From a virus (taxonomy: Duplodnaviria > Caudoviricetes), in the IMG/VR virus record IMGVR_UViG_3300029288_007102, positions 64,001 to 128,000 of that record: a stretch of 64,000 bases of DNA. One strand, given 5' to 3'. Of the stretch, positions 32,932-36,736 are shown in pieces. How positions within the stretch are numbered: the stretch's first letter is position 1; each line of letters begins with the position of its first letter. A program made the translations under genes and the position numbers. The notes under the pieces were generated by a model, which was not told the origin of the DNA, did no database searches, and was given only the letters and a program-made list of their open reading frames with translations.

Positions 32932-33204
32932 ATGAACATGTCAAAAGAAAGAGGCACCTATAATCGGAGGAATTGGGTCCAGCGATGGAAAGGTCGGATC
33001 CTTAATGCTGTTGAAAATGAGCAAGAGAAACTGGCCAGACGTTATAATGTGGGGGGTGGTTGGAGGAAACCATTAATCCGGCAAGAAGCAGTAAACCCCG
33101 CCCAATTGATCCAAGCTACTCCCGGCCAATTTAAAGAATCGAAAAAGAAGGGGCTTAAGACTTTATTTGGTTTTTTAAAAAGTAAAGGTAAAAGGAGACG
33201 CTAA
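32932..33204 (+). CDS. Hypothetical basic protein
   Basis: ORF with SD GGGGG; stop overlaps next start. Confidence 0.5.
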   Translation: MNMSKERGTYNRRNWVQRWKGRILNAVENEQEKLARRYNVGGGWRKPLIRQEAVNPAQLIQATPGQFKESKKKGLKTLFGFLKSKGKRRR

Positions 33205-33410
33205 TGTCCCAAAAAATAACTTATATACATAATAGTAAGGGGATTAAGATCGGATCCGTTGTCTTTAATGATAGTAATCGTTTTTATTATGTTTATGACG
33301 CAAAGGGGGTTAAAATTGGTTATGCTCAAGAGGGGTATGGCACTTGGGATGCGAAAGGGATAAGAGTCTCTATGGAAGCTGTCCCCGGGATGTTATTTAA
33401 GACTGGGTGA
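33204..33410 (+). CDS. Small beta-rich protein, paralog of 33780..33965
   Basis: 'VYDAKGVKIGYAQEGYGTWDAKGIRVS' aligns with 'VIGSSGETLGYATEGSGTYDADGRMVS'. Confidence 0.65.
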   Translation: MSQKITYIHNSKGIKIGSVVFNDSNRFYYVYDAKGVKIGYAQEGYGTWDAKGIRVSMEAVPGMLFKTG

Positions 33411-33418
33411 TTTTATCC

Positions 33419-33447
33419 TTGACAGAGCTCATTTGATTTGTTATATA
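33419..33447 (+). promoter_or_regulatory. Sigma70-type promoter candidate
   Basis: TTGACA-N17-TATATA with TGn extension (TATAAT also at 33446). Confidence 0.55.
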
Positions 33448-33450
33448 TAA

Positions 33451-33600
33451 TATGACTAATTCGCAAGAATTGGTTCCTTCCTTATATCACACCCTTTTGA
33501 GTGGCGATAGGATGGTCATAGTGAGGGAAGTTTTAGGGATCTCATCCCCGAGACTTCCCTCCTCTCTTTATAACCCAGGTTTTTACCTGGGTTTTTTGTT
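33451..33600 (+). ncRNA. Putative small RNA with own promoter and terminator
   Basis: No ORF; successive hairpins (33454-33475 with GCAA loop; 33523-33561) between promoter and terminator. Confidence 0.5.
33572..33600 (+). terminator. Rho-independent terminator
   Basis: AACCCAGGT-TTTT-ACCTGGGTT followed by TTTTGTTTTTT. Confidence 0.8.
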
Positions 33601-33716
33601 TTTTAGATAAATAGAAAAGAAAAACATTATTATTTAATCCGTTTATAGTCCGTCAATTTGTAGTATTTTTCTTATAGAATATAGGGGGTTTTGTTTATTT
33701 TATTTAAAAATAGTTC

Positions 33717-33745
33717 TTGACAAAGTTGACAATATGTGCTATTGT
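33717..33745 (+). promoter_or_regulatory. Sigma70-type early promoter
   Basis: TTGACA-N17-TATTGT with TGn; AT-rich upstream element. Confidence 0.7.
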
Positions 33746-33779
33746 TATATTAGAAGAGAAAAGAGAGGGGTGATTAAAA

Positions 33780-33965
33780 ATGTTATACAAAACTATTTAC
33801 GGCGGCAAAGGGGAAGTCCAGGCGTGGATCTATAAAGAAGGTAGAGAGTTTACAGTGATAGGTAGTTCAGGGGAAACTCTAGGTTATGCCACAGAAGGTT
33901 CTGGCACATATGATGCAGACGGAAGAATGGTTTCTACGGACTGTGCTCCATCTATATTGGTTTAA
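33780..33965 (+). CDS. Small beta-rich protein, paralog of 33204..33410
   Basis: Strong SD GAGGGGTG; similarity to 33204..33410. Confidence 0.65.
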   Translation: MLYKTIYGGKGEVQAWIYKEGREFTVIGSSGETLGYATEGSGTYDADGRMVSTDCAPSILV

Positions 33966-33997
33966 ATAACTCTTAAAAAAAGGAAGGGGTGGGATAG

Positions 33998-34174
33998 ATG
34001 CTTATAAATAAGAAAAAAGTTAAGATGTATATAAAAGAGCACGGCAAGCACGTAACTCAAATAGATAAGAACTTTTATGATGCTCTTAACCGCAAGTTGA
34101 TCTTGGCTTTAGAAAAGGCCTTACAGGTCAATGCAAGCCGGAAAAGGTTAACCGGGGAAGCCTTACTATTCTAA
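33998..34174 (+). CDS. Putative histone-fold protein (58 aa; not in ORF track)
   Basis: MLINKKKVKMYIKEHGKHVTQIDKNFYDALNRKLILALEKALQVNASRKRLTGEALLF; helix-loop-long helix-RKR(L)T-short helix layout as in bacterial/phage histones; SD AGGAAGGGG. Confidence 0.6.
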   Translation: MLINKKKVKMYIKEHGKHVTQIDKNFYDALNRKLILALEKALQVNASRKRLTGEALLF

Positions 34175-34187
34175 AAAGAGGTGTGTT

Positions 34188-34961
34188 ATGAGAAAAATGC
34201 AGGAGAAAGTTTTGACCGATTACAGCGATCTGTTCTTCAAAGTAGAAAGAGAAAAGCTCTATACTACAAGTCATATCTATACCGGACAGGATGCTTTGAT
34301 CAACGGAAGCACCGGGAACGTGCTAGGTGTAGTCAGTAGCAAGTATCAGGTAATAGAACATAAAGAAGTCCTGGACAGTTTCTCTAAACTTATGGAGAAA
34401 AGGGATGATATAAAAATCCAGTCTGTCCGGAGCGTTAAGGATGGAGCAAAGTTCTATATGACTGCCGAAATAGACAATAAGATTTCGGTAGGCATTCTGA
34501 AAGATGGTAAACCGGATATTATTAAGCCTATGTTGGTCCTGAGCAACAGTTATGATGAGAGCACTAAGGTTGGCTTTGTAGCCGGGATCTGGCGGTTGGT
34601 GTGCAGTAATGGTGCCTATGTAGGAATTAAGGCTATAAACCTGGTTAGAAAACATCTAGGTGCTGTAGATTTTGATTTTAGCCAGGGATTGGCCGAAGGA
34701 ATTGACTTGGTGGAACGCCGGATGATGCCGAGTATTAAGAGGATGACTCAGACTGCTATAGGGAGTCCTCAGTTTGAACTGATCAAGAAAAACCTGCCGG
34801 AACGTTTGATCAAAAATATTGGTGGAGAGAAAGCCCTTATCGGTAGGACCGAGTGGGATGGTTACAATATGTTCACCAGGCACTTGACCCACGAATATAA
34901 AGGTAGTTTTGAGCGTCAGATGGATTTGAATGGGGCGTTGGTAAGATCCTTTAATATGTAA
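34188..34961 (+). CDS. DUF932/DUF945-like phage protein
   Basis: 'LGVVSSKYQVIEH.E', 'L.NSYD', 'RLVCSNG', 'W..YN..T'. Confidence 0.75.
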   Translation: MRKMQEKVLTDYSDLFFKVEREKLYTTSHIYTGQDALINGSTGNVLGVVSSKYQVIEHKEVLDSFSKLMEKRDDIKIQSVRSVKDGAKFYMTAEIDNKISVGILKDGKPDIIKPMLVLSNSYDESTKVGFVAGIWRLVCSNGAYVGIKAINLVRKHLGAVDFDFSQGLAEGIDLVERRMMPSIKRMTQTAIGSPQFELIKKNLPERLIKNIGGEKALIGRTEWDGYNMFTRHLTHEYKGSFERQMDLNGALVRSFNM

Positions 34962-34968
34962 GAATGGG

Positions 34969-34998
34969 TTGGAGGAGAAGGTCGCCCTTCTCCTCCAA
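34969..34998 (+). terminator. Strong intergenic hairpin
   Basis: TTGGAGGAGAAGG-TCGC-CCTTCTCCTCCAA, 13-bp perfect stem. Confidence 0.55.
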
Positions 34999-35040
34999 TA
35001 CCTTAATGTCCAGGTGGAAACCCAAAGGAGAAAAAAAAAG

Positions 35041-35361
35041 ATGAACGAACAAATTGAAAAGATGATTGCAGATTGGGACAAAAATTTTAAGGTTCTTGTG
35101 GAGAGCGACAGGGTGGCTAAGGAGCAGGGGATCCTGGTAGGTCGGTATGTAAGTGAGCCTTTTGCTGATGGCAAGGCGTATTATAAGATAGTGTCAGAGA
35201 GTAAGACTAAAGTTAAAATAGAAGTGGTTACTGGGATCGGTGATGACTGGATCCTGCCGTATTGGGGAAGTAAGACCTCAATAAGTAAGGCCTACGCTAA
35301 AAGACAGATTGAAGGGAGAGAAGCCTTAGAGAAATTATTCAGCAGGAAATCGTCAGTCTAA
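35041..35361 (+). CDS. Hypothetical phage protein
   Basis: ATG after AAAGGAG; the upstream TTG start in the ORF track lies in a hairpin. Confidence 0.6.
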   Translation: MNEQIEKMIADWDKNFKVLVESDRVAKEQGILVGRYVSEPFADGKAYYKIVSESKTKVKIEVVTGIGDDWILPYWGSKTSISKAYAKRQIEGREALEKLFSRKSSV

Positions 35362-35371
35362 GGGGTGCTTT

Positions 35372-35950
35372 ATGAAGATTAAAAATCAAACACAATGGCA
35401 GACTAAACAACTCCGTAAAATCTTTATGGCCTGTCTTAATAAGGTAAGGAAGGATGAGAAGGGGAGTTTTAATCCGCAAGAATTTAAACGCATGTCAGAT
35501 CTCCAGATCCTAATTAAGTGGCATAAGACAACTTGGGTAGGTGGGTTTGCCTACTATCATAGTAAGACAATGTGCGTTAAAATGCCCCGGAGAGAGTCTA
35601 TTGTAGGTGGATATCCTGTCTGGAAACGGACGGCGAGCACATTTATCCATGAACTTGGGCATTGCTTAGGGATGCAACATACTGGAAGGTTTTATACCTT
35701 TGAGCAGTATTATGACGAATGGATCAATCAGACTTTTACTCCAGAAGCGTATCCTTTAGAATATTATCCGGAGAAACAAAAATTGGAGATCAAAACCAAT
35801 CTTAGGGAGTCCCGGTATCAGAAGGCATTGAAGTTCCAAGAGCGGGCGATAAGGAAACTTGAGAATGCCCGGAAGGGTCTAAAGAAGTGGACGAATAAGG
35901 TTAAGTATTATGAAAAGGTCTTAGCGGTAGCGAAGGGGAAGGAGCAATAG
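35372..35950 (+). CDS. HExxH zinc-metallopeptidase-like protein
   Basis: 'FIHELGHCLGMQH' (HExxHxxGxxH). Confidence 0.6.
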   Translation: MKIKNQTQWQTKQLRKIFMACLNKVRKDEKGSFNPQEFKRMSDLQILIKWHKTTWVGGFAYYHSKTMCVKMPRRESIVGGYPVWKRTASTFIHELGHCLGMQHTGRFYTFEQYYDEWINQTFTPEAYPLEYYPEKQKLEIKTNLRESRYQKALKFQERAIRKLENARKGLKKWTNKVKYYEKVLAVAKGKEQ

Positions 35951-36691
35951 ATGTCTTGCAGAATTCACTCTAAATATTGCAAAATTAAGGGGTGTAAAGG
36001 GAAATATTTTTCTCTTGGTTATTGCGTGCGTCATTATAGTCAATTTTTAAGGGCTGGCACTCTTCCTGGCCGTAAAAAATGTAAAGTTTGGGGATGCAAA
36101 AGAGGGTGTTATGCAAAAGGATTATGTAGAATTCACTATAGTAGATTTCAGAAGACAGGAACTACTTTTTTGCAGGAATGGGGAGAGGTTTGTAAGGTTT
36201 TTAATTGCAAAACTCCGGCTAGAATATTGGGGTTTTGTGTTAAACATTACGATAGATGGAAAAAATATGGCAATTGTTATAAGAGAAAAGGCGGGGCCCC
36301 TAAAGGAAAAAAGAATTGGAATTGGAGTGGGGGTGTTTCTGAGTATCCACATCATGCAACATTAAAAAAGAATAGGTTAATAAAATTAAAACAAGTTGGA
36401 TGGAAATGCGAGCTTTGTGGTAAATTTGCGTATCAAACTTTTCATAAAAATAAAAATAAGACAGATCATCGAAGGGAAAATCTTTTAGCTGTTTGTACTA
36501 AATGTCTTGGCAAATGTAAAGTTGGATTAAAATATAAATCAGTTTTTTTTAGGATGTACGGATTGACTCTTAAAGAAATGGTGGAAGCGTTTGGTAGAAC
36601 AAACATTTATTATACTTCCTTACATAAGGAAGGAAGACTTAAGAAGTTTTTATTGAAGATAAAAGATGGAGAAATAGAAGAAGGAAAATAA
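35951..36691 (+). CDS. HNH endonuclease-like protein with N-terminal CxxxxC..CxxHY zinc-finger repeats
   Basis: Three 'CK..GC....GxCxxHY' repeats; 'NWNWSGG'; 'CELCG..H....DHRRENLLAVCTKC'. Confidence 0.75.
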   Translation: MSCRIHSKYCKIKGCKGKYFSLGYCVRHYSQFLRAGTLPGRKKCKVWGCKRGCYAKGLCRIHYSRFQKTGTTFLQEWGEVCKVFNCKTPARILGFCVKHYDRWKKYGNCYKRKGGAPKGKKNWNWSGGVSEYPHHATLKKNRLIKLKQVGWKCELCGKFAYQTFHKNKNKTDHRRENLLAVCTKCLGKCKVGLKYKSVFFRMYGLTLKEMVEAFGRTNIYYTSLHKEGRLKKFLLKIKDGEIEEGK

Positions 36692-36707
36692 GTTTTTAAG
36701 AATATCC

Positions 36708-36736
36708 TTGACAAGAGAACGGTTGTGTAGTATATT
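36708..36736 (+). promoter_or_regulatory. Sigma70-type promoter
   Basis: TTGACA-N17-TATATT. Confidence 0.75.

What the first reader, a model, noticed from the sequence alone, without database searches (positions are those of the whole stretch)
33998..34174. Unannotated 58-aa histone-fold candidate in the early operon
Seen: an ORF below the track cut-off with a strong SD, second gene after the promoter at 33717: MLINKKKVKMYIKEHG-KHVTQID-KNFYDALNRKLILALEKALQVNA-SRKRLT-GEALLF. Known: bacterial histones such as Bdellovibrio Bd0055 have 'LVV.SKVK..IK..G', a long alpha2 with '..D.L...I..L..K', and an 'RKT' L2 loop. Inference: a phage-encoded histone expressed immediately after infection, possibly coating phage DNA against nucleases or silencing host DNA. 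The canonical RKTxxxxD is only partly kept (RKRLTGEA).
Basis: partly seen in the sequence, partly recalled or inferred. Interest (0 to 1): 0.75.

Follow-up and report, generated by a model that had tools for sequence, protein, structure and literature searches.

The report
Phage-encoded miniature (alpha3) histone
A large uncultured phage carries a real 58-codon gene, second behind a host-type promoter, for a miniature bacterial/archaeal-type histone that very probably pairs up and binds DNA; such phage histones have already been catalogued by computer but never tested, so this is a good new example, not a new kind of thing.

Summary
The ORF at 33998-34174 (+) exists as described and is a real gene. 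Against a related phage contig it differs at 15 synonymous but only 6 non-synonymous codons. It belongs to an unannotated family of about 80 small basic proteins with no Pfam, PHROGs or NCBIfam hit. The family profile matches the solved alpha3-truncated histone HTkC (PDB 9F2C) at E = 7e-9.

The AlphaFold2 model (pLDDT 95) is a histone fold with a short third helix. Its three best PDB matches are HTkC, HBb and HLp, the three solved prokaryotic alpha3 histones. A four-copy prediction gives a confident handshake dimer (0.83 against 0.02 for the best control). It gives no confident dimer-dimer contact.

Basic residues at the usual DNA-contact sites are conserved. The RxTxxxxD motif is altered to RxR....E in the family and is further degraded in this protein.

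The gene follows a conserved sigma70-type promoter at the late/early boundary. The main clade of the family sits on integrative mobile elements, not phages.

Phage alpha3 histones were catalogued in 2024-2025, and this scan has noted the kind on many other genomes. DNA binding and biological role are untested.

The parts
33572..33593 (+). Intrinsic-terminator-like hairpin followed by a T-run, closing the preceding transcription unit
   Evidence: identical in the related phage contig L003
33717..33745 (+). Sigma70-type promoter: TTGACA, 17 nt, TG-extended TATTGT
   Evidence: one of two exact matches in the window; -35 and extended -10 are conserved in L003 while the flanks diverge
33780..33965 (+). 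First gene of the unit: 61-aa beta-rich protein with a weak Bflower-like hit. It is replaced by a different small gene in L003
33982..33991 (+). Shine-Dalgarno-like GGAAGGGGTG, ending 6 nt before the ATG
   Evidence: read directly from the sequence
33998..34174 (+). 58-aa alpha3-truncated histone-fold protein: alpha1 5-15, L1 16-23, alpha2 24-45, L2 46-52, alpha3 53-57. Net charge +8, pI 10.1
34188..34961 (+). Downstream gene 13 nt after the histone stop codon: DUF932 / TIGR03299 'phage/plasmid-like protein'. The pairing is kept in related contig L027 (95% identity)

Best explanation
The gene encodes a miniature alpha3-truncated histone of the HTkC/HBb/HLp kind. Two copies interlock into the classical histone handshake dimer. 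The dimer presents conserved lysines and arginines, from the N-terminal end of alpha1 (K5, K6, K7, K9, K13), from L1 (K17) and from L2 (R48, K49, R50), to the DNA backbone. It therefore binds DNA without sequence preference and bends or coats it. The gene is read from a host sigma70-type promoter at the start of the non-structural region, so the protein is probably made at the onset of infection. Its main-clade relatives sit on integrative mobile elements. Its most likely job is therefore to organise or shield incoming mobile-element DNA, or to damp its transcription, in the way plasmid-borne nucleoid-associated 'stealth' proteins do. What is shown: a real gene under purifying selection, sequence homology to a solved histone, and basic-residue conservation. 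What is predicted by model: the histone fold and the dimer. What is inferred: DNA binding, expression timing, and which DNA is the target.
For: Gene reality: 15 synonymous against 6 non-synonymous codon changes relative to L003. The family has 19 hits in an exhaustive search and 83 clusters by profile. Homology: the profile matches HTkC 9F2C at E = 7e-9 (A1) and 2.2e-8 (A3), and HLp 9QT0 at E = 0.06-0.1. Fold: pLDDT 95.4 with helices 5-15, 24-45 and 53-57. Foldseek gives HTkC TM 0.85 / rmsd 1.1 A, HBb 0.80 and HLp 0.79, and every listed row is a histone-fold chain. VIA-align gives HTkC Z 7.9 (rmsd 0.9 over 55 residues), HBb 7.0 and HLp 6.8, above nucleosomal histones at Z 5-5.8. Dimer: ipSAE 0.83 against a best control of 0.02. 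In the tool's calibration the mark was reached by 20 of 30 proteins solved as pairs and by 1 of 23 solved as single chains; that calibration used two copies, whereas this job used four copies and my own alignment. Runs agree in at least 94% of contacts and partner pLDDT is 86. The contacts are alpha2-alpha2' crossing near residue 34, alpha1 on alpha2', and L1 (19-23) with L2' (51), which is the handshake geometry. Like complexes are solved, so this pass may partly be memory. DNA-contact candidates: K/R is kept at positions 5 (96%), 9 (97%), 13 (97%), 33 (96%), 48 (91%) and 50 (97%), and the median core charge is +6. In the alignment to HLp, K7, K9 and K13 fall on HLp K15, K17 and K21, which contact DNA in crystals and simulations (PMC12701072). 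Timing: the promoter and its conservation, with topoisomerase, Dda-like helicase and RNA ligase downstream and tail/glycan genes upstream. Mobile-element link: the main clade has conserved synteny beside a HerA/TraG-like ATPase, RadC, DUF3150, DUF2958 and a DUF6094 methyltransferase. Only 1 of 301 sampled genomes in that MAG's phylum carries it.
Against: No experiment exists on this or any phage alpha3 histone (PMC13681535). The canonical RxTxxxxD 'RD clamp' is altered: the T position is R50 in 93% of the family, and the acidic position (E55 in 93%) is alanine in this protein, with E54 beside it. Several alpha2 positions of this phage subclade depart from the family consensus (E39, V44). Pfam histone models (PF00808, PF09123) do not score any of 21 members at E <= 1. 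Foldseek E-values are weak (0.04-0.15) because the protein is tiny, and VIA Z below 8 is within the range the tool warns can be a common helical arrangement. The case therefore rests on the combination with the sequence match. Promoter timing is an inference; no RNA data were found.
Confidence: 0.75

Rival explanations
1. It is a face-to-face (FtF) type histone: dimers pair into a closed tetramer that wraps about 50-60 bp of DNA, as shown for HLp and proposed for HTkC, and does not act as a simple bending dimer.
For: The closest relative by sequence and by structure is the FtF histone HTkC. N45 and R48 at the alpha2/L2 junction are 97% and 91% conserved, in the region where FtF histones make their dimer-dimer contacts (PMC12701072).
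Against: Compared with HTkC the family is two residues shorter at exactly this junction. In that register, the positions matching HLp tetramer residues R49 and N53 are V44 (N in the family) and A46 or a gap. Only R48 (= HLp R55) is kept.
Confidence: 0.15
2. It is a histone-fold regulator of specific promoters, for example an early-to-middle switch factor or a repressor of mobile-element genes, and not a general DNA-coating protein.
For: It is a small early-region gene behind a strong promoter. Histone-fold proteins such as NF-Y can be sequence-specific (established knowledge). The main clade sits among regulatory and replication genes of integrative elements.
Against: There is no extra DNA-reading element beyond the minimal fold. 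The solved relatives HBb and HLp bind without sequence preference (PMC12701072). The conserved residues are backbone-contact-type lysines and arginines.
Confidence: 0.07
3. It does not bind DNA. It is a protein-protein module, for example a decoy that forms mixed dimers with a host histone or blocks a host nucleoid or defence protein.
For: Some prokaryotic histone-fold families (DUF1931 pseudodimers) lack DNA-binding residues (PMC12701072). The RD-clamp motif is degraded in this protein.
Against: Net charge is +8 and pI 10.1, with basic residues conserved at the canonical DNA-contact sites. The host is unknown, and bacterial histones occur in fewer than 2% of genomes (PMC12701072), so a host histone partner is unlikely a priori.
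Confidence: 0.03

Closest known systems
HTkC of Thermococcus kodakarensis, a face-to-face (FtF) alpha3-truncated histone (PDB 9F2C; Schwab et al. 2024, PMC11390915)
   Same: Same length class (58 vs 59 aa) and same alpha1-L1-alpha2-L2-short-alpha3 fold (rmsd 0.9-1.1 A over 55-56 residues). Sequence homology is detectable (E = 7e-9; shared 'L(I/V)xK(K/S)KVKxF(I/V)K' and 'FYDAL' blocks).
   Different: It is phage-borne, not archaeal chromosomal. L1 is one residue longer and the alpha2/L2 junction two residues shorter. RKT is replaced by RKR and the acidic clamp residue is displaced. The FtF tetramer residues are not kept.
HBb (Bd0055) of Bdellovibrio bacteriovorus, a 'bacterial dimer' alpha3 histone (PDB 8FVX, 8CMP, 9EZZ, 9F0E; PMC11317129)
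   Same: Same fold (TM 0.80, Z 7.0). The predicted oligomer is a dimer, as for HBb. It is small and basic.
   Different: No HMMER-detectable sequence similarity, even at E <= 10. HBb is an essential chromosomal protein, whereas this is an accessory gene of mobile elements.
HLp of Leptospira perolatii, a bacterial FtF histone that wraps DNA as a tetramer (PDB 9QT0-2; PMC12701072)
   Same: Fold (TM 0.79, Z 6.8, 32% identity over the aligned part). The alpha1 lysines K15, K17 and K21 that contact DNA align with K7, K9 and K13.
   Different: The sequence match is only marginal (E = 0.06-0.1). The tetramer-interface residues R49 and N53 are not conserved.
Computationally catalogued phage histone-fold proteins: the 'phage histones' of Schwab et al. 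2024 and the Caudoviricetes clusters VTTHFP, VHHHFP, VFFHFP and BBVHFP of Liu et al. 2025 (PMC13681535)
   Same: Alpha3-type histone folds encoded by tailed phages and found in IMG/VR metagenomic virus records, the same collection this record comes from. None has been tested experimentally.
   Different: Schwab's phage histones and the VTTHFPs carry a long C-terminal tetramerisation helix, which this 58-aa protein lacks. Whether this family is one of the helix-less clusters (VHHHFP, BBVHFP, VFFHFP) could not be checked, because their sequences are not held. Those surveys do not report the main clade's residence on integrative, non-phage elements.
Plasmid- and phage-borne nucleoid-associated proteins, such as the H-NS-like 'stealth' protein Sfh of plasmid R27 and the HU-like TF1 of phage SPO1 (from my own knowledge, not checked here)
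   Same: A small, abundant-type DNA-binding protein carried by a mobile element, thought to manage the element's own DNA or its cost to the host.
   Different: Unrelated folds (H-NS and HU, against the histone fold). This is a functional analogy only.

Membership tests
Alpha3-truncated histones (Schwab et al. 2024) | Histone fold alpha1-L1-alpha2-L2-alpha3, with alpha3 cut to a few residues and a shortened alpha2 | tested here: met
   AF2 model pLDDT 95.4 with helices 5-15, 24-45 (22 residues) and 53-57 (5 residues). The best structural matches are the three solved alpha3 histones.
Alpha3-truncated histones (Schwab et al. 2024) | Sequence homology to established members | tested here: met
   Family profiles A1 and A3 against PDB sequences: HTkC at E = 7e-9 and 2.2e-8; HLp at E = 0.06-0.1.
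Alpha3-truncated histones (Schwab et al. 2024) | Handshake homodimer | tested here: met
   Prediction only: ipSAE 0.83 against a best control of 0.02. Contacts are alpha2-alpha2' at about residue 34, alpha1 on alpha2', and L1 with L2'. Similar complexes are solved, so the pass may reflect likeness.
Alpha3-truncated histones (Schwab et al. 2024) | RxTxxxxD motif (R-D clamp and L2 threonine) | tested here: not met
   In the HTkC register the family reads R48-x-R50-x-x-x-x-E55 (R 91%, R 93% with T only 3%, E 93%). This protein has R48, R50 and A55, with E54 adjacent. So the motif is altered in the family and further degraded here. Schwab's own phage histones also lack it, so it does not define the whole alpha3 group.
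Face-to-face (FtF) histones (HTkC, HLp) | Conserved tetramerisation residues at the end of alpha2, in L2 and in alpha3 (HLp R49, N53, R55), forming a closed tetramer | tested here: inconclusive
   Only the R55 equivalent (R48) is kept. The R49 and N53 equivalents are V44 (N in the family) and A46 or a gap, in a junction two residues shorter. The four-copy prediction listed confident contacts within one dimer only, which is not evidence of absence.
Bacterial dimer histones (HBb/Bd0055 type) | Alpha3 fold, dimer only, lacking the FtF interface residues; sequence clusters with Bd0055 | tested here: inconclusive
   The structural match is good (Z 7.0, TM 0.80), and the oligomer and interface features fit. 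However, no HMMER match to HBb chains appears at E <= 10.
'Phage histones' of Schwab et al. 2024 and VTTHFP of Liu et al. 2025 | Alpha3 fold followed by a long C-terminal helix that forms a tetramerisation domain | tested here: not met
   The protein ends at residue 58, directly after alpha3. Family members carry at most short unstructured tails.
VHHHFP / BBVHFP / VFFHFP clusters (Liu et al. 2025) | Membership of those sequence/structure clusters | not testable with these tools
   No supplementary sequences are held for PMC13681535, and motif searches in Schwab's supplements found nothing.
Pfam CBFD_NFYB_HMF (PF00808) / DUF1931 (PF09123) | Score above the Pfam gathering threshold | tested here: not met
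   No hit to either model at E <= 1 for any of 21 family members. None of the 83 clusters carries a precomputed Pfam domain.
DNA-binding histone (function) | Binds and bends, wraps or coats DNA | not testable with these tools
   Indirect only: pI 10.1, net charge +8, and conserved K/R at alpha1, L1 and L2.

The most novel reading that the evidence does not exclude
This is a mobile-element-specific lineage of alpha3 histones, shared by large phages and by integrative (ICE-like) elements. It has swapped the canonical RxT...D clamp for RxR...E. It acts as an entry-phase DNA coat: made first from a host-type promoter, it shields or silences the incoming element's DNA against host nucleases or xenogeneic silencing. 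That would be a histone-fold counterpart of plasmid 'stealth' H-NS proteins and of leading-region anti-defence genes.
Probability: 0.2. Interest if true: 0.6.

Novelty: new member of a known kind. Interest (0 to 1): 0.35.

Why it matters
Histones in bacteria and their viruses were recognised only in the last few years, and no phage-encoded one has been tested at the bench. This example is a clean candidate for a first test. It is 58 residues long, its model is very confident, it has a detectable solved relative, and its position behind a conserved host-type promoter suggests action at the very start of infection. The same family also sits on integrative elements beside anti-restriction-type and defence genes. 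That points to a general role in establishing foreign DNA, which would link chromatin-type proteins to the phage-defence arms race. As a discovery, however, it adds one unannotated family to an existing catalogue.

Tried and rejected
Single-sequence Pfam, PHROGs and NCBIfam scans gave only sub-threshold noise: HTH_16 at E = 0.13, phrog_11590 at 0.03, an SSB phrog at 0.055 and Cas5a at 0.011. I rejected these as chance.

P0004, a 993-aa repeat protein that scored E = 1.9e-15 through nine weak repeated stretches, was rejected as a repeat artefact and left out of the alignments.

No match was found in the INPHARED phage records by megablast or tblastn, nor in IMG/VR viral contigs by pattern scan. 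One scan could not run because the alignment was too diverse.

Contexts of P0002 and P0003 were therefore obtained indirectly through the search for related loci, or not at all.

Four-copy complex: confident contacts were listed only within one dimer. I do not count this for or against a tetramer.

Sequencing runs: 13 DNA holders from landfill, wastewater and groundwater metagenomes, and no RNA holder listed. Expression could therefore not be examined, and read laying was not used.

BFVD gave only weak matches to uncharacterised Caudovirales proteins. The ESM Atlas gave viral hypothetical clusters first and archaeal histone clusters lower down. Both are leads only.

DUF932 is not a conserved partner: it was not found within 5 kb of the main-clade genes.

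Motif searches of the two survey papers' supplements found nothing or had no files.

The host of the phage was not identified.

Full report
OBSERVATION. The window is bases 64001-128000 of a 183-kb IMG/VR virus record, with every long ORF on the + strand. A GGAAGGGGTG Shine-Dalgarno-like stretch ends 6 nt before the ATG.

Upstream, a terminator-like hairpin at 33572-33593 closes the previous unit. A sigma70-type promoter (TTGACA, 17 nt, TG-extended TATTGT) lies at 33717-33745. Only two exact TTGACA-N17-TATNNT sites exist in the 64 kb. They are this one and one at 36708, which heads the next gene block. The histone candidate is the second gene after the promoter, behind a 61-aa ORF.

Genes before this point are tail, glycan and related late functions (and earlier scan notes). 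Genes after it include DUF932, a zincin-like protein, an HNH endonuclease, a topoisomerase, a Dda-like helicase and an RNA ligase. The 'late/early boundary' description is therefore reasonable, though the timing is inferred.

IS IT A GENE? Yes. A metagenome contig of a related phage (L003) carries the ORF at 85% nucleotide identity, with 15 synonymous and only 6 non-synonymous codon differences. The gene immediately upstream has been exchanged for a different one there. A second contig (L027) shows the downstream order kept: histone, DUF932 (95% identity), a 130-aa ORF and the zincin-like gene. L027 lacks the HNH gene. The promoter's -35 and extended -10 elements form a conserved island between the two phages while the flanking spacer sequence has drifted.

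FAMILY. Pfam, PHROGs and NCBIfam give nothing above noise for the protein or its relatives. An exhaustive phmmer search of 1.84 billion representatives found 19 hits. All are small proteins of 54-108 aa, apart from one repeat-protein artefact. A profile search of the 5.8-billion-sequence set found 83 clusters, none with a Pfam domain and none with a meaningful name.

The consensus is L-I-N-K-K-x-V-R-x-F-I-K-E-x-G-K-H-I-T-Q-V-E-x-x-F-Y-x-x-L...A-I-x-N-N-A-S-R-K-R-L-T-Q-Y-E-L.

HOMOLOGY TO HISTONES. A profile of 21 members against all PDB chain sequences gives HTkC (9F2C) at E = 7e-9. The DUF1931-labelled HLp (9QT0) scores E = 0.06. A 67-member profile gives 2.2e-8 and 0.1. 9F2C is the face-to-face alpha3-truncated histone of Thermococcus kodakarensis (PMC11390915). 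9QT0 is the tetrameric DNA-wrapping histone of Leptospira perolatii (PMC12701072).

STRUCTURE. AlphaFold2 with the family alignment gives pLDDT 95.4, with helices at 5-15, 24-45 and 53-57. That is a histone fold with a short third helix.

Foldseek against the PDB ranks HTkC first (TM 0.85, rmsd 1.1 A), then HBb/Bd0055 (0.80) and HLp (0.79). Every other listed row is a histone-fold chain.

An independent all-against-representatives alignment gives HTkC Z 7.9 (rmsd 0.9 A over 55 residues), HBb Z 7.0 and HLp Z 6.8. Nucleosomal and TAF/NF-Y histone folds follow at Z 4-5.8.

The absolute scores are modest because the protein is tiny, and the tools warn that such values alone can reflect a common helical arrangement. 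Three things make the assignment firm: the exclusive histone ranking, full-length coverage, and the independent sequence match.

OLIGOMER. A four-copy prediction with the 67-row alignment scored ipSAE 0.83, 0.82 and 0.83 in three runs, against 0.02 for the best of three controls. In the tool's calibration the mark was reached by 20 of 30 proteins solved as pairs and by 1 of 23 solved as single chains. That calibration used two copies, so the counts hold only roughly here. The runs agree in at least 94% of contacts, and partner pLDDT is 86.

The lowest-error contacts are alpha2 with alpha2' around residues 30-37, alpha1 residues 8-15 on alpha2' residues 34-42, and L1 residues 19-23 with L2' residue 51. 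These are the hallmarks of the histone handshake dimer. Similar complexes are solved, so the pass shows likeness and not proof. Confident contacts were listed only between two of the four copies. I treat the tetramer question as open.

RESIDUES. Across 67 members, K/R is kept at positions 5 (96%), 6 (70%), 9 (97%), 13 (97%), 17 (75%), 33 (96%), 48 (91%), 49 (70%) and 50 (97%). The median net charge of the core is +6. This protein has +8 and pI 10.1.

In the HMMER alignment to HLp, K7, K9 and K13 fall on K15, K17 and K21. Those residues contact DNA in the HLp-DNA crystals and dominate the binding energy in simulations.

In the HTkC register, which agrees with the structural alignment ranges, the RxTxxxxD motif corresponds to R48-x-R50-x-x-x-x-E55. 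The threonine is arginine in 93% of members, and the acidic residue is glutamate in 93%. In this protein position 55 is alanine, with E54 beside it.

The HLp tetramer residues R49 and N53 have no clear equivalents, because the family is two residues shorter at this junction.

WHERE THE FAMILY LIVES. The two closest relatives (90-91% identity) are in related phages. The large main clade (about 50% identity) is different. In at least 14 metagenome loci it sits in one conserved neighbourhood, with a 335-aa protein upstream and a 137-aa protein downstream.

Around that neighbourhood lie a PD-(D/E)XK exonuclease, a HerA/TraG-like P-loop ATPase, RadC, DUF2958, DUF3150, a DUF6094 methyltransferase, an AAA ATPase and a beta-clamp. 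No virion genes were seen in the stretches examined.

One copy lies on a 407-kb contig of a delta-proteobacterial MAG, next to BREX and Gabija-like defence genes. Only 1 of 301 sampled genomes of that phylum has the family.

This is the pattern of an integrative mobile element, not of a core chromosomal nucleoid protein. The window's own neighbour, DUF932/TIGR03299 'phage/plasmid-like protein', belongs to the same mobile-element gene pool. It is not a conserved partner, however.

MECHANISM. Most likely the protein is a dimeric alpha3 histone that binds the DNA backbone without sequence preference and bends or coats DNA. It would be made at the start of infection from a host-type promoter. Because its relatives ride on elements that must establish themselves in a new cell, I favour a role on the incoming element's own DNA: organisation, shielding, or transcriptional damping. 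Host-nucleoid shutdown seems less likely to me, but nothing here tests that choice.

The rivals are a wrapping FtF-type tetramer, a sequence-specific regulator, and a non-DNA-binding decoy.

WHAT IS KNOWN. Schwab et al. 2024 defined alpha3 histones and a 'phage histone' category with a C-terminal tetramerisation helix. Liu et al. 2025 mined IMG/VR 4 and reported 289 non-redundant Caudoviricetes histone-fold proteins in clusters that include helix-less alpha3 forms. None of those has experimental data.

This protein lacks the C-terminal helix, so it is not Schwab's phage-histone type. Whether it lies in one of Liu's helix-less clusters could not be checked. This scan has itself noted phage alpha3 histones many times on other genomes: 54 notes in at least 45 genomes.

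The finding is therefore real and correctly read, and it is a new member of a known kind. Its individual points are the unannotated family, the RxR...E variant of the clamp motif, the first-promoter position, and the shared residence on phages and integrative elements.

Noticed in passing
window 33419-33600: A promoter-like site (33419), a roughly 150-nt non-coding stretch and the terminator hairpin (33572-33593) are far better conserved between the window and L003 than the spacer that follows. This fits a small structured RNA at the late/early boundary, already noted by the scan as e1-5688745.
   Followed up: partly
window 35951-36691: The 246-aa HNH endonuclease gene is absent from the otherwise syntenic related contig L027, where the zincin-like gene is followed more closely by the phrog_6452 gene. 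It looks like a mobile homing-type insertion.
   Followed up: partly
window 33780-33965 and L003:6538-6720: The first gene behind the promoter differs between the two phages. The window has a 61-aa beta-rich protein with a weak Bflower hit. L003 has instead a paralogue (41% identity) of the 68-aa protein encoded at window 33204-33410. The histone gene behind it is conserved.
   Followed up: partly
L029 (G001:C27:373100-393038): In the delta-proteobacterial MAG, the element carrying the main-clade histone gene is followed by a defence island. It holds BREX genes (BrxA, BrxB, a PglX-like methylase, PglZ), a HEPN protein, and a Gabija-like OLD-TOPRIM ATPase plus UvrD helicase pair.
   Followed up: partly
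L002, L013, L021, L022 and about 10 short metagenome loci: The main-clade histone gene is flanked in at least 14 loci by the same unannotated 335-aa protein (weak primase-like C-terminus) about 1.2-1.4 kb upstream. A 137-aa protein lies downstream in 7 loci. Both have no family assignment.
   Followed up: no
window 34188-34961: The DUF932 / TIGR03299 'phage/plasmid-like protein' starts 13 nt after the histone stop codon and is 95% identical in L027. It belongs to a family typical of plasmid and ICE accessory regions, of unknown function.
   Followed up: no
window 33700-36700: Near-identical DNA occurs in landfill, wastewater and groundwater metagenomes from eight studies, so the phage lineage is widespread in such engineered or subsurface habitats.
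   Followed up: no
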